Positions 2,654 to 57,264 of a stretch of DNA of 64,000 nt are shown here, in pieces (position 1 is the stretch's first letter; every line of letters begins with the position of its first letter). Below the pieces are notes generated by a model. That model searched no databases, was not told the DNA's origin, and saw only the letters and a program-made list of their open reading frames with translations. The stretch is from a bacterium (GTDB lineage: Bacteria > Patescibacteriota > Minisyncoccia > UBA6257 > UBA9933), in the NCBI GenBank assembly GCA_030693235.1, contig JAUYBE010000006.1:139601-203600 (forward strand), given 5' to 3'. A program made the translations under genes and the position numbers.

Positions 2654-2732
2654 CTTTTAGGTTTTAGTTTTTAGGTTTTAGATAATAAATTTCTAACACC
2701 TAACACCTAACACTTAACACCTAATACCTAAC
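2654..2732. repeat. family A themed palindrome (TTTTAGG)n-loop-(CCTAACA)n abutting the rpsG start
   Basis: Direct reading. The 3' arm ends 1 nt before the TTG start at 2733. Confidence 0.8.
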
Positions 2733-3200: not shown

Positions 3201-3202
3201 AT

Positions 3203-3275
3203 TAGTTTTTAGGTTTTAGTTTTTAGGTTTTAGATAAAAAAATCTAACACCTAACACCTAACACCTAACACCTAA
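3203..3275. repeat. family A themed palindrome abutting the fusA start
   Basis: Same motifs and orientation as 2654-2732. Ends 2 nt before the TTG start at 3278. Confidence 0.8.
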
Positions 3276-3277
3276 AA

Positions 3278-5428
3278 TTGCGTCAATATCCCTTAGAAAA
3301 ATATAGAAATATAGGAATAATAGCCCATATCGATGCCGGCAAAACAACCGTTTCCGAACGGGTTCTTTTTTATACCGGTGTTTCTCATAAAATCGGCGAG
3401 GTCCATGAGGGAGAGGCGATTATGGATTGGATGGAACAGGAAAAAGAAAGGGGAATCACCATCACCGCGGCGGCCACTACTTGTTTTTGGATGCCGACGT
3501 ATCGTCGGCCGCAGAATTACGCGGACTTGACGCGGACCGACGCGGAAGAAATCAAAAAAAAATATGAACATAGGATTAACATTATTGATACGCCCGGCCA
3601 TATCGATTTCACGGTTGAAGTTCAACGTTCATTAAGGGTGCTTGACGCTGCGGTTGTTATTTTTGACGGCGTGGCCGGCGTTGAACCGCAGTCCGAAACC
3701 GTCTGGCATCAGGCGGATAAATTTAAAGTGCCGCGAATTTGTTTTATCAATAAATTGGACCGGATAGGCGCTAATTTTGAGAAATCGTTTCTTTCAATCC
3801 AGGAAAGATTGAATCCCAACGCGATTGTCGTTCAAATACCGATAGGTCTGGAAGCAAATTTTGAAGGCATTATTGATTTGCTGGCAATGAAGGCTTTTTA
3901 TTTTGAAGGCGATCGCGGCGAAAAAATTATTGAAAAAGAAATACCAAACGAGTTAAAAGTTCAAAGTGAAAAGTTAAAAGTTCTATTAATTGAAAAAATC
4001 TCTGAAACCGACGAAAAATTGACGCAAAAATATCTTGAAGGAAAAGAAATCAGTTTTGAAGAACTTAAACAGGCGATGAGAAAAGCCACAATCAACAGTC
4101 AATTGGTTCCGGTTTTTTGCGGTTCGGCGTTGAAAAACAAAGGCGTTCAGTTGATGCTCGACGCCGTTTTGGATTATTTGCCTTCGCCGCTTGATTTGAA
4201 AGAAATCAAGCCGATTGAAGGAGCGCATCCGAAAACCGAAGAAAAAATTAATCGTCAACCGGCGGATAATGAACCGCTGGCGGCTTTGGCTTTTAAAATC
4301 GCCACAGACCCTTATGTCGGCAGCCTCACCTTCGTCAGAGTTTACAGCGGCGTTCTTAAGAGGGGATCTTACGTTCTGAATTCATCAAAGGGCAATCAGG
4401 AAAGAATCGGCCGGATTGTCCGAATGCACGCCAATCAACGGGAAGAAGTCGAGGAAATGTATGCCGGCGATTTGGGCGCGGCCGTAGGATTGAAAGGAAC
4501 TTCCACGGGCGATACTTTGTGCGATCCGGGCAATCCGATTGTTTTGGAAAAGATTATTTTCCCGGAGCCGGTGATTTCCGTCAGAATCGAGCCGAAAACG
4601 AAAGCCGATCAGGAAAAATTGGGTTTTGCCCTTCATAGATTATCAGAAGAAGATCCGACTTTCCGCATTAGCGGCGACCCCGATACCGGCGAGACGATTA
4701 TTTCCGGTATGGGCGAACTTCATTTGGAAATTATTATTGACCGGGCGAAAAGGGAATTTGGAGTTGAAGCGGATATCGGCAGGCCTCAGGTCGCTTATAA
4801 AGAAACTGTCAACGCCGAGTCCGAAGCTGAGGGTAGATATATCAAGCAATCCGGCGGTCGAGGTCAGTACGGCCATGTTTGGTTAAACGTTAAGTCATTG
4901 GAAAGGGGGAAAGGATTCGTCTTTGTCAATAAAATAAAAGGCGGTATTATTCCCCAGGAATTTATTCCGGCGGTTGAAAAAGGCGTTAAAGAAGCGTTAA
5001 GTAAGGGAATTTTAGCCGGTTATCCGATTGTTGATATTGAGGTGAAACTTTATGACGGTTCTTTTCATGAAGTTGACTCGTCGGAAATCGCTTTTAAAAT
5101 CGCCGGCGCGATGGCTTTTTTGGAAGCGGCAAAAAGAGCCAAGCCGGTGATTTTGGAACCGGTGATGAAAATTCAGGTAATCGCGCCTTTGGAATTTTTA
5201 GGCGACGTTACCGGCGATCTCAATGCCAAGCGCGGAAGGATTGAAAATATTTCAGATAGGGTTAATATTAAAGTGATAGATGTTAAAGTGTCCCTGGCTG
5301 AAATGTTCGGTTACGCGACCAAGTTGCGGTCAATGACTCAGGGCAGAGGAACCTTTACGATGGAATTCGACCATTATGAAGAAGTGCCATCAAATATTGC
5401 CCAGTTGATTATTGAAGGGAAGAAATGA
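3278..5428 (+). CDS. fusA: elongation factor G (TTG start)
   Basis: [17 protein letters not shown]-domain; 716 aa translational GTPase. Confidence 0.95.
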
Positions 5429-5436
5429 TAATAATT

Positions 5437-5508
5437 ATGTGTCATTGCGAACGAAGTGAAGCAATCTATATGTGAGATTGCCGCGGGCTTCGCCCTCGCA
5501 ATGACAGT
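5437..5508. repeat. family C palindrome GTCATTGCGA...TCGCAATGAC
   Basis: Arms gtcattgcgaacgaagtgaagcaatct / agattgccgcgggcttcgccctcgcaatgac. Lies between fusA and rplM. Confidence 0.7.
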
Positions 5509-5514
5509 TATTCA

Positions 5515-6915: not shown

Positions 6916-8154
6916 ATGAAACAATCTAAACTTTTTATCAAAACCAAACGCGAGGCGCCGAAAGACGAAGAGGCGATTAACGCTAGATTACTGATACGGG
7001 CGGGTTTTATCGATAAATTAATGGCGGGAGTTTACACTTTTTTGCCGTTAGGATTAAGAACGCTTAAAAAAATTGAAAATATTATTCGCGAAGAAATGAA
7101 CAAAGCCGGCGGACAGGAAGTTTTAATGCCCGGTCTTCAGCCGAAAGAAAATTGGGTAAAAACCGGAAGATGGGATTCTATGGATGATCTTTATAAAATT
7201 AAGGACGCAAGCGGAAGAGAGTTTGCTTTGGGTCCGACGCACGAAGAAGTGGTTTTCCCCTTACTTAAAAATGTCATTTTTTCTTATAAAGACCTGCCTC
7301 TTTATGTTTATCAAATTCAAAATAAATTCAGGATGGAATTAAGGGCAAAATCCGGCCTTTTGCGCGGAAGAGAATTTTTAATGAAAGATTTTTATTCTTT
7401 CCATACCGACGAAAAAGACAGAGATGATTATTATGATTTTATGGCGAAAGTTTATAAAAATATTTTTGACATACTAGGTATAGGAGATAAAACACACTAT
7501 ACGCTTGCCTCCGGCGGAACATTTTCCAAATATTCCCATGAATTTCAAACTGTCACCGATGCGGGCGAAGATACAATACATATTTGCTGTAAATGCGAAA
7601 TGGCCATAAATGACGATATTATAAAAGAAAATAAATCCTGTCCAAAATGCGGCGAATCAAGTTTTAGCCCAAAAAAGGCCATAGAAGTTGGGAATATTTT
7701 TAAATTAAAAGAAAAATTCGCCGATGATTTCGGATTGAAATTTAAAGATAAAGATGGAATGGAGAAAACGGTTATAACCGGCTGTTATGGAATCGGTCTT
7801 GGTCGGTTGATGGGAGCCGTTGTAGAGTCAAGCTATGATGAAAAAGGAATGATTTGGCCGGAATCAATCGCGCCGTTTCAAGTTCATTTAATCAGACTAA
7901 CGACAAACGACAAACGACAAACGATTTTTGCGGATAAAATTTATAATGCTTTACAAAAATCCGGCGTTGAAGTATTATACGACGACCGCGAAGATATTGG
8001 CGCCGGCGAGAAATTCGCCGATGCGGATTTAATCGGAATTCCATGGCGGGCCGTTGTCAGTGAAAGAACAGGAAATAAGATTGAGATTAAAAAAAGAAAT
8101 GAGAAGAAAACAAGACTGGTGAGCGAGAAAGAATTTATTAAGACACTAAAATGA
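6916..8154 (+). CDS. proS: prolyl-tRNA synthetase (short form without editing domain; Cys4 insertion)
   Basis: REAPKDEEAINARLLIRAGFI...GVYTFLPLGLR class II motifs. CCKCE...CPKCG insertion. Confidence 0.85.
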   Translation: MKQSKLFIKTKREAPKDEEAINARLLIRAGFIDKLMAGVYTFLPLGLRTLKKIENIIREEMNKAGGQEVLMPGLQPKENWVKTGRWDSMDDLYKIKDASGREFALGPTHEEVVFPLLKNVIFSYKDLPLYVYQIQNKFRMELRAKSGLLRGREFLMKDFYSFHTDEKDRDDYYDFMAKVYKNIFDILGIGDKTHYTLASGGTFSKYSHEFQTVTDAGEDTIHICCKCEMAINDDIIKENKSCPKCGESSFSPKKAIEVGNIFKLKEKFADDFGLKFKDKDGMEKTVITGCYGIGLGRLMGAVVESSYDEKGMIWPESIAPFQVHLIRLTTNDKRQTIFADKIYNALQKSGVEVLYDDREDIGAGEKFADADLIGIPWRAVVSERTGNKIEIKKRNEKKTRLVSEKEFIKTLK

Positions 8155-10719: not shown

Positions 10720-10790
10720 GTTTTTAGGTTTTAGTTTTTAGGTTTTAGATAAAAAAATCTAACACCTAACACCTAACACCTAACACCTAA
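10720..10790. repeat. family A themed palindrome abutting the rpoA start
   Basis: Same motif and orientation. Ends 4 nt before the GTG start at 10795. Confidence 0.8.
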
Positions 10791-10794
10791 AAAA

Positions 10795-12063: not shown

Positions 12064-12153
12064 TCATACGAAAATACGAAAACATACGAAATTACGAAAA
12101 CTAACTTTCGTACATTCGTACAATTTCGCACTTTCGTAAGAAAATTTCGTATG
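12064..12153. repeat. family B themed palindrome (TACGAAA)n / (TTTCGTA)n whose 3' arm includes the tuf ATG
   Basis: catacgaaaatacgaaaacatacgaaattacgaaaa ... tttcgtacattcgtacaatttcgcactttcgtaagaaaatttcgtATG. Confidence 0.8.
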
Positions 12154-14129: not shown

Positions 14130-14759
14130 ATGGCATTCATTTTAGGCAAAAAATTAAAAATGTCGCAGATTTGGAAAGATGATGAAGTGATTCCGGTAAC
14201 GTTGATTCAAGCGGGACCGATAACGATAACGCAAATCAGGACAAAGGAAAAAGACGGTTATGAAGCGGTTCAGGTTGGATTCGGAACGAAAAAATTAAAG
14301 AACATCAAAAAACCGCAGCAAGGCCAATTTAAAAATTTGGGCAATTTTCAGCATGTCCGCGAATTTCGGATTAAACAATTACCAATTACCAGTTACCAGT
14401 TACCAAAAGTAGGCGATGTTTTGGATGTCAGTCAATTTGAAGACGGTGGCAAAGTAAAAATCAGCGGCTTAAATAAAGGTAAGGGATTTCAAGGAGTCGT
14501 TAAGCGCCACGGTTTTCATGGCGGACCGAAAACTCACGGCCAAAAAAATCGCCATCGAGCGCCCGGTTCAATTGGCGCCACGGCGCCGCAACGGGTAATG
14601 CCCGGGAAAAAAATGGCCGGTCGAATGGGACAGGAACGAATAACGGTTAAAAATTTAAAAATTGCCGGCGTGGATAAAGAAAACAATATTTTGATGATTA
14701 AAGGCGCGGTGCCGGGAATGAGGGGAACACTGTTGGAAATTAATCAGTATGACAGTTAA
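14130..14759 (+). CDS. rplC: 50S ribosomal protein L3
   Basis: GKGFQGVVKRHGFHGGPKTHGQKNRHRAPGSIG uL3 signature. Confidence 0.9.
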   Translation: MAFILGKKLKMSQIWKDDEVIPVTLIQAGPITITQIRTKEKDGYEAVQVGFGTKKLKNIKKPQQGQFKNLGNFQHVREFRIKQLPITSYQLPKVGDVLDVSQFEDGGKVKISGLNKGKGFQGVVKRHGFHGGPKTHGQKNRHRAPGSIGATAPQRVMPGKKMAGRMGQERITVKNLKIAGVDKENNILMIKGAVPGMRGTLLEINQYDS

Positions 14760-19049: not shown

Positions 19050-19050
19050 G

Positions 19051-19118
19051 TTTTTAGGTTTTAGTTTTTAGGTTTTAGAGAATTTCTAACACCTAACACC
19101 TAACACCTAACACCTAAA
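19051..19118. repeat. family A themed palindrome abutting the rplN start
   Basis: Same motif and orientation. Ends 4 nt before the ATG at 19123. Confidence 0.8.
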
Positions 19119-19122
19119 TAAA

Positions 19123-21087: not shown

Positions 21088-21089
21088 GA

Positions 21090-21180
21090 GCATACGAAAA
21101 TACGAAAACATACGAAAAATACGAAAACTAACTTTCGTACATTCGTACAATTTCGTACTTTCGTAAGAAAACTTCGTATG
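21090..21180. repeat. family B themed palindrome whose 3' arm includes the rplF ATG
   Basis: gcatacgaaaatacgaaaacatacgaaaaatacgaaaa...tttcgtacattcgtacaatttcgtactttcgtaagaaaacttcgtATG. Confidence 0.8.
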
Positions 21181-23098: not shown

Positions 23099-24367
23099 AT
23101 GAATAAGTTTCTTCAAATCTTCAAAATCAAAGAATTGCGCAATAAAATTTTAGTGGTGGCTTTTTTGTTGCTGTCTTTCCGCGCTTTGGCGGTAATTCCC
23201 GTTCCCGGCGTTGATATTTTGCGCTTAAAGGAGTTTTTCGCCTCCAATCAATTATTCGGTTTTTTGAATCTTTTTTCCGGCGGCGCTTTGGCTAATTTAT
23301 CAATTGTTATGTTGGGGGTGGCTCCTTACATTACAGCCACCATTATTATGCAGCTTTTGACAATGATTTTCCCGAAATTGAAAGCGATGTATCACGAAGA
23401 AGGCGCTGTCGGCAAAGCGAAATTTAATCGTTATTCTCGCTACTTGACCGTTCCTTTGGCAGGTCTTCAATCGTACGGTTTTTTAAATCTTTTGATTTCT
23501 CAAGGAGCGTTGCCGGTTTTAGGGTTATTTGATTTAATAAGAAATGTCGTTATTATTTCCGCTGGTTCCATAATTTTGGTTTGGCTCGGGGAATTAATAA
23601 CCGAACAAAAAATTGGCAATGGTATTTCTTTGATTATTTTTGCCGGCATTGTCAGCGGTTTGCCAACAACTGTTTGGCAGGCAATTACCGCCTATGATCC
23701 GGCGATTTTGCCGACTTATATTGTTTTTATTATTGTGGCGATTTTAGTAATTGCCGGTGTGGTTTTTATTAACGAAGGGGAGAGAAAAATTCCGATTGCT
23801 TACGCCAAGCGCGTCAGGGGAATGAAAATGTACGGCGGCTCCTCGAGTTATTTGCCGCTCAAAGTCAATCAAGCCGGCGTGATTCCCATAATTTTTGCCA
23901 TTTCTATTTTGCTTTTTCCGCAATTTTTCGCGCAGGCAGTGTCGATTTTTTCCAAAGATTTATCTCTTAAGCTTATTGATTTGGTTAATAATGTTTTTAA
24001 TAATCTATATCTTTACAGTTTGTTTTATTTCGGATTGGTGGTTATTTTTACTTATTTTTACACGGCCGTCACTTTTGATCCGAAAGAAATTTCAAAAAAT
24101 CTCCAACGCGCCGGCGGTTTTATTTCGGGTATCAGGCCGGGCGATTCAACTTCAGGTTTTCTTTCTAAAATCATTAGCCGCTTGACTCTTTCTGGAGCGA
24201 TATTTTTAGGATTGGTGGCAATTTTGCCGAATTTAACGCAGATGGTTACCGGTATTACTATTTTAACCATCGGCGGCACGGCGCTGTTGATTGTTGTTTC
24301 GGTGGCTTTGGAAACAATTAGGCAGATTAATTCGCAATTAGTGATGAGGGAGTATGAGGAAATATAG
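23099..24367 (+). CDS. secY: preprotein translocase subunit SecY
   Basis: 10-TM protein in the expected position after rplO. Confidence 0.9.
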   Translation: MNKFLQIFKIKELRNKILVVAFLLLSFRALAVIPVPGVDILRLKEFFASNQLFGFLNLFSGGALANLSIVMLGVAPYITATIIMQLLTMIFPKLKAMYHEEGAVGKAKFNRYSRYLTVPLAGLQSYGFLNLLISQGALPVLGLFDLIRNVVIISAGSIILVWLGELITEQKIGNGISLIIFAGIVSGLPTTVWQAITAYDPAILPTYIVFIIVAILVIAGVVFINEGERKIPIAYAKRVRGMKMYGGSSSYLPLKVNQAGVIPIIFAISILLFPQFFAQAVSIFSKDLSLKLIDLVNNVFNNLYLYSLFYFGLVVIFTYFYTAVTFDPKEISKNLQRAGGFISGIRPGDSTSGFLSKIISRLTLSGAIFLGLVAILPNLTQMVTGITILTIGGTALLIVVSVALETIRQINSQLVMREYEEI

Positions 24368-24460: not shown

Positions 24461-25198
24461 ATGATAGCAATCATAATGTATGGTCCTCCGGGCTCCGGTA
24501 AAGGAACTCAGGCTAAGCTTTTAGCCGATAAATTCGGGTTGATTCATTTTGACACAGGGAAATACATTGAACGAGTTGTTCACAATTCAAAAAATAAAAA
24601 AAATAAAATAATTCAAAAACAGCGCGAATTATTTGATTCCGGAATTTTATGCGATCCTTCTTGGGTTTTTAAAATTGTAAGCGAAAAAACTCGCCAGTTG
24701 GTTAAAATTGGTTTTGGTATTGTCTTTAGCGGCTCCCCCCGGACGTTTTACGAAACCTTTGGCATAAAACACGAAACAGACGCGAAAATTAAAAAAAACA
24801 CGAAACAGACGCGAAAATTAACAAGGGGTTTAATTGATATTTTAGAAAAATATTACGGCAAGAAAAATGTTTTTGTTTTTAATATTGATATTTCCGATAA
24901 AAATTCAATCAAAAGAAACGGCAATCGTTTAATGTGCTCGGTTTGCGGGACTCAGATATTAAATAAAGTTTTAAAGTTTAAAAGTTTAAAAGTTTCAAAG
25001 TGTCCGTTTTGCGGCGGAAAACTTTATCGCCGGACATTAGACAAACCGGAAATCATTAAAGTAAGATTAAAAGAATATCGGGAAAGAACATTGCCGATTC
25101 AAAAAGAATTGAAAAAACGCGGTTATAAAATTATTGATATTAATGGCGAGTCCTTGCCGGAAAAAGTTCATAAAAAAATATCTTCTTATTTAACTTAG
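24461..25198 (+). CDS. adk: adenylate kinase (zinc-LID type) carrying repeat-derived insertions
   Basis: GPPGSGKGTQA P-loop. CSVCG...CPFCGG LID. Internal 29-nt direct repeat and an AAGTTTAAAAGTT array. Confidence 0.8.
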   Translation: MIAIIMYGPPGSGKGTQAKLLADKFGLIHFDTGKYIERVVHNSKNKKNKIIQKQRELFDSGILCDPSWVFKIVSEKTRQLVKIGFGIVFSGSPRTFYETFGIKHETDAKIKKNTKQTRKLTRGLIDILEKYYGKKNVFVFNIDISDKNSIKRNGNRLMCSVCGTQILNKVLKFKSLKVSKCPFCGGKLYRRTLDKPEIIKVRLKEYRERTLPIQKELKKRGYKIIDINGESLPEKVHKKISSYLT

Positions 25199-25199
25199 A

Positions 25200-25964
25200 A
25201 TGGTCAATACTTATTCTTTTTCTGAAATTAAAAAAATCGTCTTAGCCGGCAAAATTTTGGCGAAAATTTTGGAAACCGTTAAAAAAGAAGTAAAAGTCGG
25301 AGTTAGTTTAAGACATTTAGATAGATTAGCTTTTCAGCTTGCTAAAAAATACAAAGCCAGACCTGCTTTTTTGGGTTATCAACCGGATAACGCCTCAAAA
25401 CCGTTTGGCGGCTCAATTTGCGCTTCGATTAACGACGTAATTGTTCACGGTTTGCCTTCGGATTATAAACTTCAAAACGGCGATGTTTTGAAAATTGATT
25501 TTGGAATTGAGTACCAAAGTTTTTTTGCTGACGCCGCGATTACTATTGGTATTGACGAGATTTCCAAAGAAACAAAACATTTAATTGAAACAACCGAATC
25601 GGCTTTAAAAAAAGCGATTAAAATGGCGAAGCCGGGAAGAACTTTGGGCGATATCGGCTGGATTATTGAAAAAACCGCGGAGGATAACGGATTAAAAGTA
25701 ATAAAAGATTTAACCGGCCATGGTATCGGTAGAGAACTTCACGAAGACCCCGTGATTTATAATTTTGGCAAAAAGGCAAGCGGGATTAAATTGGAACCAG
25801 GAATGGTTTTGGCAATTGAACCGATGTTCTCCATTGGTTCCGGAAAAATTATCCAACGTCCGGACGAAAGTTGGGCGACAGAAGACGGCTCTTTATCGGC
25901 TCATTTTGAGCATACAATCGCGATTACCGAAAAGGGATCACAGATATTAACCATTAACAATTGA
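25200..25964 (+). CDS. map: methionine aminopeptidase type I
   Basis: Pita-bread fold motifs with D, D, H, E, E metal ligand positions. Confidence 0.85.
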   Translation: MVNTYSFSEIKKIVLAGKILAKILETVKKEVKVGVSLRHLDRLAFQLAKKYKARPAFLGYQPDNASKPFGGSICASINDVIVHGLPSDYKLQNGDVLKIDFGIEYQSFFADAAITIGIDEISKETKHLIETTESALKKAIKMAKPGRTLGDIGWIIEKTAEDNGLKVIKDLTGHGIGRELHEDPVIYNFGKKASGIKLEPGMVLAIEPMFSIGSGKIIQRPDESWATEDGSLSAHFEHTIAITEKGSQILTINN

Positions 25965-28570: not shown

Positions 28571-29833
28571 ATGTTAGATATTAATTTTATCCGTCAAAAT
28601 TCGGAAGAAGTCAAAAAAGGCGTTGCCGCCAAAAATGTAAATCCTCAATTAGTGGATGATTTTTTGGTTTTGGATAATGAATGGCGAGAGTTGGTCAAAG
28701 AAACCGATGATTTGCGGGCAGAACAGAAGAAGCTTTCCGAAGAGCGTAAAATCAATGAAGCAAAAGAATTAAAAAATAAAATTCAAAATCTGGAAGAAAG
28801 ATTGAAGCAAGTTGAAACCGAACGTCAGAAAATTTTATACCAATTGCCGAATTTGCCGTTAGAAGACGTACCGGTAGGCAAAAATGAAAGCGAAGATATT
28901 GTTTTACGCGAAGTGGGTGAAAAGTTAAGCTTTGACTTTGAACCGAAAGATTATTTGGAGCTCGCCGAAAAATTGGATTTAATTGACATTAAACGCGCTT
29001 CAAAAGTTTCAGGAAGCCGCTTCGGTTATTTAAAAAATCAAGCGGCGCTTTTGGAATTCGCTTTGATTAAATTAGCATTAGACACAGCGGCCAAACATGG
29101 ATTTACGCCGATTATTCCGCCGGTGATGATTAAAGAAGAAATGATGAAAGGAATGGGATATATTCAAAGTTCAATGTTAGACGAGGAAGTTTATTTTTTA
29201 AGAGACGATGATTTGGTTTTGGTTGGAACTTCCGAGCAGTCTCTCGGCCCGATGCATAGCGATGAGATTTTTGAAGAAAAAGATTTGCCCAAAAGATATG
29301 TGGCTTTTTCAACCTGTTTTCGCCGCGAAGCTGGTTCTTATGGAAAAGACACCAAAGGCATTTTAAGGGTTCATCAATTTGATAAAATAGAAATGTTTAT
29401 ATTTTCACTTCCAGAAAATTCATTAAAAGAACATCTGTTAATGCTGAAAATTGAGGAAGAATTAATGCGGGAATTAGGAATCCCTTATCGGGTTGTTCAG
29501 CTTTGCACGGGCGATATAGCTCAGCCGTCGGCTTCCACTTATGATATTGAGGCGTGGCTACCGGGCCAAAACAACGGCAAGGGCCAGTATCGTGAAACTC
29601 ACTCCACTTCCAATTGCACCGATTTCCAAGCCCGAAGATTAAATATCCGTTATAAACCCCTAAAACCTAAAACCCAAAACCTAAAACCTAATTACGTTCA
29701 CACCCTAAACGGCACCGCTTTCGCAATTGGCAGAATGCTTATCGCCATCATTGAAAATTACCAACAAAAAGACGGTTCGGTTTTAATGCCGAAAGTTTTG
29801 CAAAAGTACTTAGGATTCAAGAAAATTGAATAA
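28571..29833 (+). CDS. serS: seryl-tRNA synthetase carrying an in-frame family-A-like repeat insertion
   Basis: N-terminal coiled coil plus class II core (TCFRREAGSYG...HTLNGTAFAIGRMLIAIIENYQ). Confidence 0.85.
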   Translation: MLDINFIRQNSEEVKKGVAAKNVNPQLVDDFLVLDNEWRELVKETDDLRAEQKKLSEERKINEAKELKNKIQNLEERLKQVETERQKILYQLPNLPLEDVPVGKNESEDIVLREVGEKLSFDFEPKDYLELAEKLDLIDIKRASKVSGSRFGYLKNQAALLEFALIKLALDTAAKHGFTPIIPPVMIKEEMMKGMGYIQSSMLDEEVYFLRDDDLVLVGTSEQSLGPMHSDEIFEEKDLPKRYVAFSTCFRREAGSYGKDTKGILRVHQFDKIEMFIFSLPENSLKEHLLMLKIEEELMRELGIPYRVVQLCTGDIAQPSASTYDIEAWLPGQNNGKGQYRETHSTSNCTDFQARRLNIRYKPLKPKTQNLKPNYVHTLNGTAFAIGRMLIAIIENYQQKDGSVLMPKVLQKYLGFKKIE

Positions 29834-31494: not shown

Positions 31495-32361
31495 ATGAAA
31501 AGCAGCATATATTTTGACGAAAAATCGGAGCGGAGAAGAAAGCGGATGTTAAAAATCAAGATTTACGCGGGATTAGCGGCTTTTTTTGTTTTGCTCATCG
31601 GCGCGGGGTATTTGATCGTTTATTCTCCGCTATTTCAAATTAAAAACATTTCAATATTTCGGTCGTCCGACGACCGAAATTTGACATCGGACGTTCAGAA
31701 ATTAAAAGAAAATCTTAAAAATTTCTTTACCAACCAATCAAAAATTGCCGAATTTTTGGGCCCTGAAAATATTTTGATTTGGAAATCGGAAAAATCCGCT
31801 GAGTTTATAAAAAATTATCATCAAATCGCGGAATTGAAAATCGAAAAGCATTATTTGGGACGGGAAATAAAAATCAGCGTTTCGGAAAGAGAGCGATTTG
31901 GCATTTGGTGCTTCATAACGCGGAACTACGCGGAAGATAACGCGGAACTACGCGGAAATAGTCTGCGTGAGTCAGCATGCTGGTGGTTTGATAAAAAGGG
32001 TGTTATTTTTTCGGAAGCGTTGAAGGCGGAAGGGCAATTGATAAATAAAGTAGATGATTTTTCCGGCCGTTCCTTAAATCTCGGCGAACCGGTTCTTGAA
32101 GAAAAATTTCTTTCTAATTTGTTTAAAATTTTTGAAATTCTTGAAAAATCGGATTTGAAAATAAAATCGCTGAAATTGGAAAATCTTAAACTTCAAGAAG
32201 TTGTTACCGATTCGCCGTTAATGCCGAAAATCCATTTCAGCTTAAGAATTAATTCGGAATTCGCCTTAGCCGCTTTGGATTCCATCAAAAAAATCGGATT
32301 TAGTAAAATAGAGTATATCGATTTAAGAGTGGAGAATAGAGCATATTACAAACTTAAGTAA
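31495..32361 (+). CDS. hypothetical membrane-anchored protein, possibly FtsQ/DivIB-like (POTRA)
   Basis: Single N-terminal TM helix. IKISVSERERFGIWC resembles the POTRA beta-strand. Contains a tandem ACGCGGAA insertion. Confidence 0.25.
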   Translation: MKSSIYFDEKSERRRKRMLKIKIYAGLAAFFVLLIGAGYLIVYSPLFQIKNISIFRSSDDRNLTSDVQKLKENLKNFFTNQSKIAEFLGPENILIWKSEKSAEFIKNYHQIAELKIEKHYLGREIKISVSERERFGIWCFITRNYAEDNAELRGNSLRESACWWFDKKGVIFSEALKAEGQLINKVDDFSGRSLNLGEPVLEEKFLSNLFKIFEILEKSDLKIKSLKLENLKLQEVVTDSPLMPKIHFSLRINSEFALAALDSIKKIGFSKIEYIDLRVENRAYYKLK

Positions 32362-32365
32362 AATT

Positions 32366-34207
32366 TTATAGTTTGTAAATAAATATTGATTTACCCGCTT
32401 TAAAATCCGGCTGATACGGATTTTTTATTTCTTTCAGCCATTGGTATTCGTTTTCCGGACTTCTTGATTGGCCCGGATGAAGTTCGCCAAAAGCGTTTTG
32501 AAGAGTATTAATTGAAATCGCCAACCATCCAATATTTTCGTATTTCGGATTATTTTTCGATGATTGCCAATATTCAGCTTTATCTCCCAAATAATATTTC
32601 GGGTTGCCGCCGCCGAAATAATCAATGGCGATCTTTTTTATGTCATTGTTATAGTCATTGTCATTGTTTCTATCATTCACCCATTTAGCTAGTCGTTTCA
32701 AATCCTGACCCCAGTCGTAGTTAGAATCCACGGCGTAACGATAACCGTTATTTGTTCCGCCGGCGAATTGGTTGAAATAAGAAAGAAAATGAGGATAAAC
32801 CAACAAGGTTTCGGCAAAATACCAAACCATTAAAACGGCGATTAAAATTTTTTTAGTTTTTGCTTTTTTGCCATTAATCCATTTTTTAATCGCGCCGGCA
32901 GTTAAGATATAAATAAACGGCATTGTCGGCAGAATATGCCGAATACCGATATTCAACGGACTTTTAATACTGTAAAGCCAATAGAAAATCACAAATGAAA
33001 TCATTGCGAATTCGGCGAAATGAAGACCGAGATAGTCCATTAAACGACATTTGACATTTGACACTTGACATTTGACATTTTTAACAATTCTCCAAGAAGC
33101 AAAAATAAAAGCAAGAAGAATTAATATCAGCGACGGAATAGATTCTTTTAAAATAAAAAGTACTGGAAAATAATACCACCAACCAACTGCCGAAACTTCG
33201 CCCAAGAAATAACCGGTATTACCGCCGGATGAACGTTGCATCACCATTAAAACGCCGAGCATATATTCTCCAAGCGGCCTTAAAATTTTATTATTGGCCA
33301 TCCAAATATTAATTTCCGCCAAACATCGTAAATTCAGTTTACAGCTTTCCCAATTTGCGTCCGGGCCGCCGGCAAAAGAAGCTAAAGTGAATTTTGTGTC
33401 GGCAAACTGTTTTTCAATCGGATAATTAATCGTAAACAAGAAATAAACCGCGTAGACCAAGGCGTAGCCGATAATAAAAATCAATAAAAGCGCTTTAATA
33501 TAATGAAAAGCTTTATTTTGCTGTTTGTCGTAATAAATTTTCCAGATATAAAAAATAACGATTAAAAATATAAAAAACGGAATTAAAAGCACGGCAGAAA
33601 ATTTCATCAATTGGGCGACGCCGAAAGCCAAGCCGGCGAAAATTAAATATTTTTGCGACGGCCCAAGGAGAAATTTTACAAAATAATAAGTGGCGATGAA
33701 TATTCCCAGAGCCGCGCCGAGGTCAGTAGTAACATAATGGCCGTGAGCAAGTACGGTCGGAGAAAGGGAAAAGAGAAAAGCGGGAAACAGCGCCCACCAG
33801 CGGCCCATAAGTTCTTTTCCCCAAATATAAATAAAAATTATTAAGAGGAGAGTTAAAAGCATCGGGCCCAAACGCGACCACTGGATAATTTTATCGGCGT
33901 CGTTTCCGGATTCATATAAAAATTGGTTGCCGGCTTCCCATTGGCCGTTAATGTCATTTTGCCAAGCGGATTTGTCAGTCGGAAAATTCAACTTGTGAAA
34001 TAATAACGGCAAAGCGGCTAAAGTTTTTACCAAAGGCGGATGTTCGGGATTTAAACGATAATCCAGATATTTGACGTAGCCGTAGCCGGCCGGAATGTGC
34101 GCCAGTTCATCCATTGTGGCCGATTCCTGGAGAGAGGCGTTGAGCATCAAAAAAAATGACGCTGAAACAATCGCGGCCAACAAAAGCCAATTAATGTATT
34201 TATTCAT
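32366..34207 (-). CDS. GT-C fold membrane glycosyltransferase (GT39 / ArnT / PMT_2-like)
   Basis: About 12 TM helices. An N-terminal MDELAH first-loop acidic motif. Contains tandem CATTTGACA and TCATTG arrays. Confidence 0.55.
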   Translation of the reverse strand: MNKYINWLLLAAIVSASFFLMLNASLQESATMDELAHIPAGYGYVKYLDYRLNPEHPPLVKTLAALPLLFHKLNFPTDKSAWQNDINGQWEAGNQFLYESGNDADKIIQWSRLGPMLLTLLLIIFIYIWGKELMGRWWALFPAFLFSLSPTVLAHGHYVTTDLGAALGIFIATYYFVKFLLGPSQKYLIFAGLAFGVAQLMKFSAVLLIPFFIFLIVIFYIWKIYYDKQQNKAFHYIKALLLIFIIGYALVYAVYFLFTINYPIEKQFADTKFTLASFAGGPDANWESCKLNLRCLAEINIWMANNKILRPLGEYMLGVLMVMQRSSGGNTGYFLGEVSAVGWWYYFPVLFILKESIPSLILILLAFIFASWRIVKNVKCQVSNVKCRLMDYLGLHFAEFAMISFVIFYWLYSIKSPLNIGIRHILPTMPFIYILTAGAIKKWINGKKAKTKKILIAVLMVWYFAETLLVYPHFLSYFNQFAGGTNNGYRYAVDSNYDWGQDLKRLAKWVNDRNNDNDYNNDIKKIAIDYFGGGNPKYYLGDKAEYWQSSKNNPKYENIGWLAISINTLQNAFGELHPGQSRSPENEYQWLKEIKNPYQPDFKAGKSIFIYKL

Positions 34208-37908: not shown

Positions 37909-37929
37909 TCGCGAATATTTACGAATTTG

Positions 37930-37998
37930 GAAGTGTCATTGCGAGGGCGAAGCCCGTGGCAATCTCATTAGATTGCTTCGCCTGCGGCTCGCAATGAC
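37930..37998. repeat. family C palindrome GTCATTGCGAGGGCGAAGCCC...GGCTCGCAATGAC
   Basis: One arm is near-identical to an arm of the 5437-5508 copy. Ends 9 nt before the ATG at 38008. Confidence 0.7.
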
Positions 37999-38007
37999 GA
38001 TATTATT

Positions 38008-40341: not shown

Positions 40342-40345
40342 CTAC

Positions 40346-40418
40346 GCCGGAGTAGCTCAGTTGGTAGAGCAATGCTTTCGTAAAGCAGAGGTCGCGAGTT
40401 CGAATCTCGCCTCCGGCT
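40346..40418 (+). tRNA. tRNA-Thr (anticodon CGU)
   Basis: GCCGGAG acceptor, GCTCAGTTGGTAGAGC D-arm, anticodon loop TTCGTAA, GCGAGTTCGAATCTCGC T-arm. Confidence 0.8.
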
Positions 40419-40419
40419 C

Positions 40420-51515: not shown

Positions 51516-51519
51516 TTGT

Positions 51520-51590
51520 TTAGGTGTTAGGTGTTTAGGTGTTAGGTGTTAGTTAATTTCTAAAACCTAAAAGCTAAAACCTAAAAGCTT
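51520..51590. repeat. family A themed palindrome in reverse orientation, abutting the dnaX start on the minus strand
   Basis: gtttaggtgttaggtgtttaggtgttaggtgttag...ctaaaacctaaaagctaaaacctaaaagc. Orientation relative to the downstream gene is as for the other copies. Confidence 0.8.
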
Positions 51591-51656
51591 AAATTACATT
51601 TTACATTAAAACATCCACCCTTGACAAGTTTTGGCAGTCTGCTATCCTCTTAATAT

Positions 51657-52127: not shown

Positions 52128-52853
52128 TTGTACCAATTACAACTTGAAAAATTTTCCGGACCGATTGAAAAACTTCTGGAACTGATCGAGAGGAAAAAAT
52201 TGGAAATCACCGAATTAAATTTAGCCGACGCAACGGCTGATTTTTTAAATTACGTTAAAAGGATTGAAAATATAGAACCGCGTCTTTTGGCGGATTTCGT
52301 GGTAATAGCCGCCAAACTTTTACTTATCAAATCAAAAGCGCTTCTGCCGAATCTTCAATTAACCGAAGAGGAAGAAAAAGACATAAAAGATTTGGAAAAC
52401 CGCCTCAAAATTTACCGGCAATTCAAGCCGGCGATTGACCATCTTAAAGAATTGTCGGAACGGAACGGAGTCTCGATTTCCCAGCCGCTCTTCAGCCGCC
52501 GACCGATAATTTTTTATCCGTCGGAAAATATTAAAATCGGCGAATTGCATAAAGCCATCAAAGGAATTTTTGACAACTTTAAACAATTTCAAAACGAGAC
52601 CAAAATAATCAAATCTTCGCTTATTACTTTGGAGGAAAAAATCGAGGAGATTATAAATCGGCTGAACGCGGACTCACGCAGACTTGACGCGGACTCGCGC
52701 GGAAAAATTGGTTTTGATGAATTAATAAGGGGAAAACCGCGTTCGGAAATTATTGTTTTGTTTTTAGCCTTACTTCATCTATTGGCAAAGCAATCGATAA
52801 GGGTTGAGCAAAAAGAAAAATTTTCTGATATAATTATTACTAAACAACCATGA
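52128..52853 (+). CDS. scpA: segregation and condensation protein A
   Basis: Kleisin-like ScpA pattern. Directly upstream of scpB. Confidence 0.7.
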   Translation: MYQLQLEKFSGPIEKLLELIERKKLEITELNLADATADFLNYVKRIENIEPRLLADFVVIAAKLLLIKSKALLPNLQLTEEEEKDIKDLENRLKIYRQFKPAIDHLKELSERNGVSISQPLFSRRPIIFYPSENIKIGELHKAIKGIFDNFKQFQNETKIIKSSLITLEEKIEEIINRLNADSRRLDADSRGKIGFDELIRGKPRSEIIVLFLALLHLLAKQSIRVEQKEKFSDIIITKQP

Positions 52854-53377: not shown

Positions 53378-53447
53378 GTTTTTAGGTTTTAGTTTTTAGG
53401 TTTTAGTGAATTATCTAACACCTAACACCTAATACCTAACACCTAAA
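53378..53447. repeat. family A themed palindrome abutting the ATG at 53451
   Basis: Same motif and orientation. Ends 3 nt before the ATG. Confidence 0.8.
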
Positions 53448-53450
53448 TAA

Positions 53451-55666: not shown

Positions 55667-55668
55667 TA

Positions 55669-55764
55669 TCATACGAAAGTGCGAAAATATACGAAATTAC
55701 GAAACATAAAAACAACTTCGTACATTCGTAAAATTTCGTATTTTCGTAAGAGATTTTTGTAATG
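55669..55764. repeat. family B themed palindrome ending in the ATG at 55762
   Basis: tcatacgaaagtgcgaaaatatacgaaattacgaaa...cttcgtacattcgtaaaatttcgtattttcgtaagagatttttgtaATG. Confidence 0.75.
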
Positions 55765-57198: not shown

Positions 57199-57202
57199 TC
57201 AG

Positions 57203-57264
57203 GTTTTAGGTTGTAGGTTTTAGGTTTTAGAACCTAACACCTAACACCTAACACCTAACACCTA
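57203..57264. repeat. family A themed palindrome ending 0 nt before the ftsW ATG
   Basis: ggttttaggttgtaggttttaggttttagaacctaacacctaacacctaacacctaacacctaATG. Confidence 0.8.

What the first reader, a model, noticed from the sequence alone, without database searches (positions are those of the whole stretch)
24769..25000. adk carries two repeat-derived insertions, including a 29-nt direct repeat read in two different frames
acacgaaacagacgcgaaaatta occurs twice at 24769 and 24798 (period 29 nt, not a multiple of 3). The reading frame encodes HETDAKIKK, then NTKQTRKLT from the same nucleotides shifted. This sits between the NMP-binding region and the LID. Separately, AAGTTTTAAAGTTTAAAAGTTTAAAAGTTTCAAAGT at 24965-25000 is related to the family H hairpin upstream of adk. 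It inserts KVLKFKSLKVSK between the two Cys pairs of the zinc LID (CSVCG ... CPFCGG). Either the Adk protein tolerates both insertions, or there are assembly errors.
Basis: seen in the sequence. Interest (0 to 1): 0.6.

Follow-up and report, generated by a model that had tools for sequence, protein, structure and literature searches.

The report
Repeat-encoded loops in adenylate kinase gene
An intact adenylate kinase gene of an uncultured Patescibacteria (CPR) bacterium contains two stretches built from short DNA repeats whose unit length is not a multiple of three, so one repeat is translated in several reading frames; they lie at the only two places where this protein family tolerates length changes, and other housekeeping genes in the same genome have similar repeat-built loops.

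Summary
A 29-nt tandem duplication (24766-24794 / 24795-24823, 57/58 identical) and an 8-nt repeat (AAAGTTTN x4.6, 24965-25001) lie inside an intact adk ORF (24461-25198) between secY and map. Segment 1 is a true lineage-specific insertion: net +16 aa, 54 nt gained and 6 lost. It sits in a loop after 'PRTFYETFG' and is predicted to be disordered. Segment 2 is not a 12-aa insertion. It replaces the normal tip of the zinc LID (CxxC-x18-CxxC against the canonical x16). Across 120 orthologues, internal length variation is confined to these two sites. At least three unrelated classes of short repeat or palindrome occupy site 1 in different lineages, at or within the same codon in the loci with DNA. 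Independent assemblies reproduce the LID repeat (L081) and a diverged two-unit 29-nt insert (L082). Gain or loss of one unit truncates the protein, and the two repeat units read in frame 0 carry substitutions that remove TAA stops, so the segments are translated. The window holds nine non-triplet tandem arrays inside genes, against 0.1 expected (fusA and serS among them). I found no relation to the upstream hairpin beyond chance. This is a new variant of in-frame repeat insertion, of moderate interest.

The parts
24461..25198 (+). adk (nucleoside monophosphate / adenylate kinase), 245 aa, intact ORF
   Evidence: ORF list. Pfam ADK 57.5 bits against a cut-off of 26.8. PDB Adk hits to E=6e-18. 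AF2 mean pLDDT 87.7 and Foldseek TM 0.81-0.86 to Zn-type Adk structures. 100% identical to an NCBI MAG protein named nucleoside monophosphate kinase.
24482..24508 (+). P-loop GPPGSGKGT (residues 8-16)
   Evidence: Invariant columns in the 30-sequence alignment; aligns to the P-loop of solved Adk.
24764..24826 (+). Hot-spot loop, residues 102-122 (IKHETDAKIKKNTKQTRKLTR). Uninserted relatives have 5 residues here (DKSQN): net +16 aa, 54 nt gained and 6 lost
   Evidence: Codon alignment with orthologue DNA. AF2 pLDDT 52-55 over residues 101-120, and <50 for 105-109 and 111-115.
24766..24794 (+). 29-nt repeat, copy 1, read as (K)HETDAKIK
24795..24823 (+). 29-nt repeat, copy 2 (28/29 identical to copy 1), read in the frame shifted by 2 nt as NTKQTRKL
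   Evidence: Removing or adding one copy gives a stop at codon 116 or 130.
24935..25012 (+). Zinc-knuckle LID core, C159-S-V-C162 ... C181-P-F-C184, spacer 18 aa
   Evidence: All four Cys are invariant in the 30 orthologues.
24965..25001 (+). 8-nt tandem repeat AAAGTTTN x4.6, read in all three frames as KVLKFKSLKVSK. Units 1 and 4 (frame 0) have T and C at position 8 instead of A, which removes TAA stops
   Evidence: The pure consensus translates as KV*KFKSLKV*; +/-1 unit truncates the protein. AF2 pLDDT about 60 over residues 171-180.
It is context only; no link to the LID repeat was shown
   Evidence: RNA fold -15.7 kcal/mol, z -3.9. Similarity to the LID repeat is not above the null.

Best explanation
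This is a working adk gene in which two surface segments are encoded by short non-triplet DNA repeats and are translated as passenger peptides. Segment 1 is a 54-nt insert made of two 29-nt units. It sits in the loop that follows the PRT strand (after 'FYETFG'), is disordered, and leaves the catalytic core untouched. It stays in frame only as a pair of units together with its flanks. Segment 2 is the distal hairpin of the zinc-ribbon LID. Its ordinary coding sequence has been replaced, for a net gain of 2 aa, by an (AAAGTTTN)n array read in three frames. Point substitutions keep that array open. Both segments come from a genome-wide mutational process in this Patescibacteria lineage: the spread and turnover of short tandem repeats, hairpin arms and palindromes. 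Selection then filters the products, so in essential genes they survive only in frame, free of stops, and at structurally permissive loops. In adk those loops are exactly these two sites plus the C-terminus. Shown: the anatomy, the reading frames, the intact fold and motifs, the two hot spots, recurrence across lineages, the genome-wide excess and the stop-avoiding substitutions. Inferred: how the repeats are generated (slippage or tandem duplication, recombination or insertion of short elements), that the peptides are neutral, and that the enzyme is active.
For: (1) The gene is intact. The P-loop, the PRT arginine, the LID arginines and the four Cys are conserved. AF2 gives pLDDT 87.7, low only at residues 101-120 and 171-180. 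Foldseek matches Zn-type Adk.
(2) The hot spots are real. In 120 orthologues, internal indels longer than 1 aa occur only after residues 100-119 (25 sequences, up to 18 aa) and in LID residues 170-177.
(3) Site 1 is hit repeatedly by different elements:
- Class i, a GC-rich palindrome read as LPAGQAG, LPAGRQG or LSAGLTG, in P0004, P0005, P0059 and P0078 (P0003's LPDRRAS assigned tentatively); DNA shown in L083, L084 and L091.
- Class ii, CGCGGA spaced 10-11 nt and read as NADxRG, in P0031, P0036, P0042, P0076 and P0120; DNA shown in L090 and L093.
- Class iii, in the window and in P0010.
The junctions fall at or inside the same D/N codon.
(4) LID alleles built from different repeat units occur in relatives: AAAGTTTN in L081 and L083, its reverse complement AAACTTTN in L087, and ATNTCGAA in L084. 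Recombination shuffles them among close relatives.
(5) The segments are translated. Frame-0 units carry T or C where the consensus A would create TAA. Any +/-1 unit change truncates the protein.
(6) The pattern is genome-wide. Coding sequence holds 9 non-triplet arrays scoring >=50, against 0.1 in codon shuffles. fusA has a 24-aa insertion containing an ACGCGGA array. A serS loop is encoded by (CCTAAAA)n, a unit resembling the reverse complement of the arm unit of the commonest intergenic hairpin family.
(7) Independent assemblies reproduce both structures.
Against: No source copy of the 29-mer was found in the 64 kb window, in the related loci or in JGI metagenomes. For segment 1, 'repeat proliferation' therefore rests on analogy with the other classes. 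The near-perfect identity of the two 29-nt copies (57/58) contrasts with 69% identity between the two units in L082. The insert is also unusually conserved at third codon positions between the window and L082 (0.81 against 0.51 elsewhere, p=0.005). A neutral passenger of ancient origin would not show either pattern. They require a recent or independent acquisition, homogenisation, or a constraint at the DNA level. No biochemical or expression data exist. This Adk family lacks the canonical Arg36, so its exact substrate is unverified.
Confidence: 0.7

Rival explanations
1. The repeats are kept for a function at the DNA or RNA level, such as phased protein-binding sites, an mRNA structure, or pairing with the upstream hairpin. 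On this view the encoded peptides are by-products.
For: The two 29-nt copies are 57/58 identical although they are read in different frames. Identity between the window and L082 inserts does not follow the usual codon-position pattern: 0.86/0.67/0.81 against 0.76/0.83/0.51 in the rest of the gene. All four LID units differ in concert between the window and L087. The LID repeat is 73% complementary to the right arm of the upstream hairpin (I1).
Against: The closest relatives lack the elements. L081 and L085 have no 29-mer insert, and L085 has the ordinary LID sequence, so neither element is required. L081 keeps the LID repeat but has a different upstream hairpin. The match to the hairpin is not above chance. 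The LID repeat folds weakly on its own (-3.6 kcal/mol).
Confidence: 0.1
2. The inserted peptides are adaptive at the protein level: Lys/Arg/Thr-rich loops that give Adk a new interaction or tune LID dynamics.
For: The window and P0010 inserts share 12 of 21 residues and the same frame. The KVLKFK-type LID occurs in several clades. Tandem repeats in Borg elements are argued to create functional disordered regions (PMC9879509).
Against: The substitutions between the two inserts are mostly non-synonymous: 9 of 11 changed codons, with the second codon position the least conserved. The sister lineages lack the insert. Unrelated sequences occupy the same site in other lineages. AF2 predicts no structure there.
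Confidence: 0.1
3. Insert 1 is ancient: one insertion in a common ancestor of the window and P0010 lineages. It was then lost precisely in many lineages, and gene conversion has kept the two copies identical in the window.
For: Position, frame and period (29 nt) are the same in both lineages, with 78% nt identity. At one site both window copies carry G where both L082 copies carry A (my reading of the sequences), which could reflect concerted change.
Against: The NJ tree places at least five uninserted lineages between the two carriers. Third codon positions in the insert are 81% identical, against 51% in the rest of the gene and about 50% in the immediate flank (flank counted from the alignment). 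That points to an age younger than the split of the genes. P0016 and P0020, sisters of P0010, carry a different insert.
Confidence: 0.2
4. The structure is an assembly or sequencing artefact, or adk is a decaying pseudogene.
For: The exact protein is known from a single contig (one member). Tandem repeats can be mis-assembled. Read data could not be examined.
Against: The arrays are 58 and 37 nt long, shorter than typical short reads (my assumption about the sequencing technology). The ORF is continuous and all catalytic motifs are kept. Independent assemblies carry the same LID repeat (L081) and a homologous two-unit insert (L082, L092). The stop-avoiding substitutions argue for selection.
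Confidence: 0.04

Closest known systems
Rickettsia palindromic elements (RPEs): MITE-like repeats inserted in frame into unrelated housekeeping genes (review PMC10969869)
   Same: Selfish or neutral repeat DNA persists inside essential protein-coding genes. It is read through in frame at positions compatible with the fold, and it recurs across many genes and species.
   Different: RPEs are about 150 bp, palindromic, dispersed in multiple copies, and encode one conserved peptide. The units here are 7-29 nt direct tandem repeats whose length is not a multiple of three, so they are read in two or three frames. The 29-mer has no other copy in 64 kb.
Tandem repeats in Borg extrachromosomal elements that create disordered regions in proteins (PMC9879509)
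   Same: Perfect nucleotide tandem repeats arise within ORFs, evolve fast, and add predicted disordered peptide.
   Different: In Borgs every tandem repeat inside an ORF has a unit length divisible by three and gives perfect amino-acid repeats. Here 9 of 11 coding arrays have non-triplet units, and only the total length is in frame. The host genes are core housekeeping genes of a bacterium.
REP sequences / mobile GC-rich palindromes. REPs: PMC3733652. Yeast mitochondrial GC clusters and 'byp' elements: from my own knowledge, not checked here
   Same: The class i element found at the same adk site in relatives is a 20-22-nt GC-rich perfect palindrome in an AT-rich genome (ACCTGCCTGCCGGCAGGCAGGT). 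It is also present in rplR and at the 3' end of adk.
   Different: It is absent from this window. No RAYT-type transposase was looked for. These palindromes are translated (LPAGRQ) rather than being extragenic or bypassed.
Bacillus-type adenylate kinase with a zinc-binding LID (e.g. 1P3J, 1ZIN, 5G3Z)
   Same: Same fold (TM 0.81-0.86), P-loop, LID arginines and Cys4 knuckle.
   Different: The spacer between the Cys pairs is 18 residues rather than 16. The loop after PRT carries 7 family-specific residues plus 16 lineage-specific ones. Arg36 of the NMP site is not conserved in this Patescibacteria family.
Simple-sequence contingency loci (phase variation by slipped-strand mispairing)
   Same: A non-triplet tandem array lies inside an ORF, and gaining or losing one unit switches the frame.
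   Different: The gene is a single-copy core gene inside the ribosomal-protein/secY operon. No frameshifted alleles were seen among the orthologues retrieved. Switching adk off would presumably be lethal, not adaptive.

Membership tests
Adenylate kinase (Pfam PF00406; long form with zinc LID) | Match to the ADK profile above the curated threshold | tested here: met
   57.5 bits against a cut-off of 26.8, covering residues 7-220.
Adenylate kinase (Pfam PF00406; long form with zinc LID) | P-loop GxxGxGK[GS]T plus the core and LID arginines | tested here: met
   GPPGSGKGT, R94 (PRT), R152/R156, R190/R191 and R202 align to solved Adk. Arg36 of the NMP site is replaced throughout this family.
Adenylate kinase (Pfam PF00406; long form with zinc LID) | LID with CxxC...CxxC zinc knuckle (Pfam ADK_lid) | tested here: inconclusive
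   All four Cys are present and invariant. ADK_lid scores only 18.4 bits against a cut-off of 26.6. Zinc binding cannot be tested here.
Adenylate kinase (Pfam PF00406; long form with zinc LID) | Adk fold | tested here: met
   AF2 pTM 0.82; Foldseek E=7e-17, TM 0.81-0.86 to 5g3z, 4tyq and 1zin.
Adenylate kinase (Pfam PF00406; long form with zinc LID) | ATP:AMP phosphotransferase activity | not testable with these tools
   Needs an enzyme assay or complementation.
RPE / MITE-type in-frame mobile repeat | Dispersed multi-copy family in the same genome | tested here: not met
   The 29-mer has only its two tandem copies in 64 kb, and no significant match elsewhere. (AAAGTTTA)2 has no close second site. 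Only 64 kb of the genome was available.
RPE / MITE-type in-frame mobile repeat | Palindromic or terminal-inverted-repeat structure | tested here: not met
   Segment 1 is a direct repeat. The LID array is only quasi-palindromic (-3.6 kcal/mol).
RPE / MITE-type in-frame mobile repeat | In-frame persistence at a structurally permissive site of a housekeeping gene | tested here: met
Borg-type amino-acid tandem repeats | Unit length divisible by three, giving perfect amino-acid repeats | tested here: not met
   Units are 29 and 8 nt, and the peptides are not repeats. Compare PMC9879509.
Phase-variable contingency locus | Unit-number polymorphism among strains that switches the ORF on and off | tested here: inconclusive
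   +/-1 unit truncates the protein. The only independent assembly of the same LID allele has the same unit number (L081), and no truncated orthologues were seen. Population reads were not available.
Programmed frameshift / translational bypass element | The frame is disrupted or a stop lies inside the element, so recoding is required | tested here: not met
   The ORF is continuous through both segments.

The most novel reading that the evidence does not exclude
Patescibacteria genomes may host an active process, still unidentified, that writes short non-triplet repeats and palindromes into the same position of essential genes in independent lineages. In adk that position is at or within one codon, right after the FG-D/N codon. 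The process would also homogenise or invert the repeats at the DNA level, so that protein loops such as the Adk LID tip become passengers of DNA-repeat dynamics. The 2x29-nt insert would then be a recent product of that process, not an old duplication.
Probability: 0.25. Interest if true: 0.75.

Novelty: new variant of a known kind. Interest (0 to 1): 0.5.

Why it matters
The result shows that an essential, structurally well-understood enzyme in an ultra-small bacterium carries loops dictated by DNA-repeat dynamics, not by protein-level selection. Adk is a standard model for LID dynamics, so the result marks two natural sites that accept insertions. It also warns annotators that non-triplet tandem arrays in CPR genes are not necessarily frameshifts or assembly errors. 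Finally, it points to a genome-wide source of protein length variation in Patescibacteria. That source could be studied with existing metagenomes, by timing gains, finding source copies and looking for a target motif. I found no description of this in the literature I searched. That search was small, so this is not proof of absence.

Tried and rejected
1. Exact search for the 21-nt core of the 29-mer in JGI metagenome contigs found nothing. A degenerate class iii pattern found only the P0010 contig. No source element was identified.
2. Smith-Waterman search with the 29-nt unit against the rest of the window and eight orthologue loci found nothing above shuffles except the homologous L082 insert. 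I therefore dropped my impression that it resembles the arm of the L082 upstream hairpin.
3. The LID repeat against the upstream hairpin is the best hit in the window but lies within the null. Rejected as evidence of relationship.
4. The GC-rich palindrome of relatives (CCTGCC..GGCAGG) is absent from the window.
These were useful only for the range of LID lengths.
7. The whole-window inverted-repeat scan missed the G-U-rich hairpins. Folding the intergenic gaps replaced it.
8. k-mer over-representation gave no convincing uptake-sequence-like signal.
9. The idea of a recombination tract carrying the insert from a P0010-like donor was rejected, because third codon positions in the flanks are about 50% identical.
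10. Four literature searches found no report of this in Patescibacteria.

Full report
**Observation**

The ORF at 24461-25198 (+, 245 aa) lies between secY (23099-24367) and map (25200-25964). TRF and the repeat finder extend it to a 29-nt unit, 24766-24794 / 24795-24823, with one mismatch in 58 nt. Because 29 is not a multiple of three, copy 1 is read as (K)HETDAKIK and copy 2 as NTKQTRKL. At 24965-25001 an 8-nt unit AAAGTTTN is repeated 4.6 times and read in all three frames as KVLKFKSLKVSK. Its periodicity is significant.

**The gene**

- Pfam ADK scores 57.5 bits against a cut-off of 26.8.
- phmmer finds Bacillus-type and Aquifex adenylate kinases.
- AlphaFold2 with a 30-sequence alignment gives mean pLDDT 87.7 and pTM 0.82.
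- Foldseek matches Zn-containing Adk structures at TM 0.81-0.86.
- The P-loop, the PRT arginine, the LID arginines and all four Cys are conserved.
- The identical protein is in NCBI as a 'nucleoside monophosphate kinase' of an uncultured bacterium. The nearest named relatives are Patescibacteria/Parcubacteria.
- Low model confidence is confined to residues 101-120 (pLDDT 52-55) and 171-180 (about 60). These are the two repeat-encoded segments.

**Segment 1 is a real insertion in a hot spot**

PDB alignments break between residues 98 and 125. I retrieved orthologue DNA and compared it codon by codon. The closest relatives, L081 and L085 (87-88% nt identity), read TTT GGA GAT AAA AGC CAA AAT GGT (FGDKSQNG). 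The window has 21 codons where they have five. That is a net gain of 48 nt, from 54 inserted and 6 deleted.

In a 120-sequence alignment, internal length variation longer than one residue is confined to two places. One is this slot, where 25 sequences carry inserts of up to 18 aa. The other is the LID tip.

Different lineages carry unrelated sequences at this slot:

- **Class i** is a 21-nt GC-rich palindrome, for example ACCTGCCTGCCGGTCAGGCAGGT, read as LPAGQAG. It occurs in lineages only about 52% identical to each other (L084, L091). It also appears at the 3' end of adk (L081, L085, where it creates an LPAGRQV tail) and inside rplR (L091).
- **Class ii** is CGCGGA spaced 10-11 nt and read as NADxRG(L)NADxRG (L090, L093).
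- **Class iii** is found in the window and in P0010/L082.

In the loci for which I have DNA, the junctions fall at or inside the D/N codon that follows FG. The boundaries are ambiguous by one or two bases.

**Origin of the 2x29-nt insert**

L082 carries a homologous insert at the same place, in the same frame and with the same 29-nt period. Its two units are only about 69% identical to each other by my count from the sequences. The window's units are 57/58 identical.

The NJ tree built without the variable regions nests the window among uninserted sisters and puts P0010 in another clade.

Between the window and L082, identity by codon position is 0.76/0.83/0.51 in the rest of the gene but 0.86/0.67/0.81 in the insert. 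For the third position the binomial p is 0.005. The insert therefore does not behave like an old protein-coding segment under purifying selection. It is either younger than the split of the two genes, through independent acquisition or exchange of a short element, or it is homogenised or constrained at the DNA level.

I could not find a source copy. The 29-mer has no other significant match in the window or the loci, and none in JGI metagenomes apart from the P0010 contig. The origin remains unresolved. One 29-nt unit more or less truncates the protein at codon 130 or 116. A simple recent duplication of an in-frame single copy is therefore excluded.

**Segment 2 is a replacement, not an insertion**

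Bacillus-type Adk has CxxC-x16-CxxC. The window has x18. The other orthologue loci checked range from x12 to x22, and the 120-orthologue survey shows a wider spread. The widespread state in the neighbouring clades is ATFKDVxxLKM (x16).

The repeat-type allele NKVLKFKSLKVS occurs in the window, L081 and L083. More diverged forms occur in L086 and L087. Other findings on the LID alleles:

- L084 has a different 8-nt unit, ATNTCGAA.
- L087's array matches the reverse complement of the window's array (28/31) better than the direct orientation (26/32). All units therefore differ in concert.
- Sliding-window identities show that adk is a mosaic among close relatives. The window is 98-100% identical to L081 across residues 133-190, which include the LID. 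It is closer to L085 across residues 55-94. Recombination therefore moves LID alleles between lineages.
- The two units read in frame 0 have T and C at position 8, where the consensus A would create TAA. The same holds in L087. This is direct evidence of selection to keep the frame open, and so of translation.

**The suggested link to the upstream hairpin**

The secY-adk spacer folds into a hairpin whose arms are 7-9-nt AAAGTT / AACTTT units. Its left arm is the best match in the window to the LID repeat, with score 15. Other sites score 13-13.5, and periodic queries with permuted units have a median best score of 16. L081 shares the LID repeat but has an upstream hairpin with different units. 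The link is not demonstrated.

**Genome context**

- The window contains many intergenic hairpins whose arms are tandem 7-9-nt units. One family (TTTTAGG.../CTAACAC...) has at least six copies and needs G-U pairs, so it pairs on the sense RNA strand.
- Inside genes there are 11 tandem arrays with TRF score >=50, nine of them with non-triplet periods. Codon-shuffled controls give 0.75 and 0.1.
- fusA has a 24-aa insertion relative to Thermus EF-G that contains an ACGCGGA array.
- A serS loop is encoded by (CCTAAAA)x4.7, net +4 aa relative to Aquifex SerS. By my reading, this unit resembles the reverse complement of the arm unit of the main hairpin family.
- A 22-nt unit is perfectly duplicated and read in two frames in the ORF at 31495-32361.

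The adk case is therefore one instance of a genome-wide pattern.

**Comparison with known systems**

In-frame persistence of repeat DNA in housekeeping genes is known from Rickettsia palindromic elements (PMC10969869). Repeat-made disordered regions are known from Borg elements, where every tandem repeat inside an ORF has a unit divisible by three (PMC9879509). Here the units are short, direct and non-triplet. They are read in several frames and recur at the same site in many lineages. Neither family definition is met; see the membership table. Four searches found no description of this for Patescibacteria. That literature check is limited.

**Verdict**

The best explanation, at confidence 0.7, has three parts:

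- adk is functional.
- Two permissive surface segments are occupied by the products of short-repeat turnover.
- Those segments are translated as passenger peptides.

The mechanism that generates and spreads the repeats is inferred, not shown. I rate the novelty as a new variant of a known kind, and the interest as 0.5.

Noticed in passing
window 2654-2732, 3201-3277, 10720-10794, 19050-19122, 53378-53450, 57199-57264 (possibly also 51516-51656): A family of intergenic hairpins whose left arm is (TTTTAGG/AGTTTTTAGGTTTT)n and whose right arm is (CTAACAC)n. Pairing relies on G-U, so it works only on the sense RNA strand. The hairpins sit between genes of the ribosomal-protein region, with folding z-scores of -4.5 to -9.6. 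They look like terminator or processing hairpins built from tandem heptamers.
   Followed up: partly
window 12065-12150, 21088-21177, 55667-55761: A second family of periodic hairpins, (ATACGAAAA)n ... (TTTCGTACA)n, in three copies (z -3.8 to -6.8).
   Followed up: partly
window 3494-3565 (fusA, ORF 3278-5428): EF-G carries a 24-aa insertion (residues 73-96) between 'TTCFW' and '[11 protein letters not shown]' relative to Thermus EF-G. The insertion contains an ACGCGGA array spaced 10-11 nt (3519-3546), read as [11 protein letters not shown] second array, (AGTTAAA)n at 3951-3982, encodes [11 protein letters not shown] with no change in length.
   Followed up: partly
window 29653-29691 (serS, ORF 28571-29833): (CCTAAAA)x4.7 encodes the loop KPLKPKTQNLKPN, net +4 aa relative to Aquifex SerS. 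The unit resembles the reverse complement of the arm unit of the commonest hairpin family.
   Followed up: partly
window 31915-31957 (ORF 31495-32361, no Pfam hit): A 22-nt unit, ATAACGCGGAACTACGCGGAAG, is duplicated perfectly and read in two frames (ITRNYAEDNAELRGN). This is the same kind of structure as the 29-nt pair in adk.
   Followed up: no
window 7895-7924 (class II aaRS with HGTP anticodon domain), 14376-14406 (rplC), 33046-33080 (PMT_2 glycosyltransferase, minus strand), 52666-52703 (scpA): Four more non-triplet tandem arrays lie in frame inside genes: GACAAAC, CAATTAC, AAATGTC and ACGCGGACTC. All three CGCGGA arrays in the window lie on the coding strand, and no inverted partner is present.
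   Followed up: partly
window 5429-5511 and 37909-38007: Two copies of a GC-rich hairpin of the type GTCATTGCGA...TCGCAATGAC, a different kind of repeat from the periodic AT-rich hairpins.
   Followed up: no
L081:2181-2200, L084:1806-1826, L091:5167-5186 and 7982-7998: Relatives carry a 20-22-nt GC-rich perfect palindrome, ACCTGCCTGCCGGCAGGCAGGT. It is inserted in frame in the adk loop (LPAGQAG) and in rplR (LPAGRQ), and at the 3' end of adk, where it creates a new tail LPAGRQV*. It is absent from this window.
   Followed up: partly
window 24554-24574 (adk residues 32-38): This Patescibacteria Adk family reads TGKYIE(R/Q)VV where canonical Adk has TGDMLRAAV. The AMP-site Arg36 is not conserved, and the family also has about 5 extra residues in the NMP-binding domain. 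The substrate specificity may differ from classical Adk.
   Followed up: no
adk, window 24461-25198, against L081, L084 and L085: The identity pattern among close relatives is a mosaic. For example, residues 143-162 are 100% identical in three relatives, whereas residues 65-94 are 75-80% identical to L081 and 90-93% identical to L085. This indicates homologous recombination within this group.
   Followed up: partly
window 40342-40419: The intergenic sequence folds as a cloverleaf (GCCGGAGTAGCTCAGTTGGTAGAGC...) and is probably a tRNA gene. I did not run ARAGORN.
   Followed up: no
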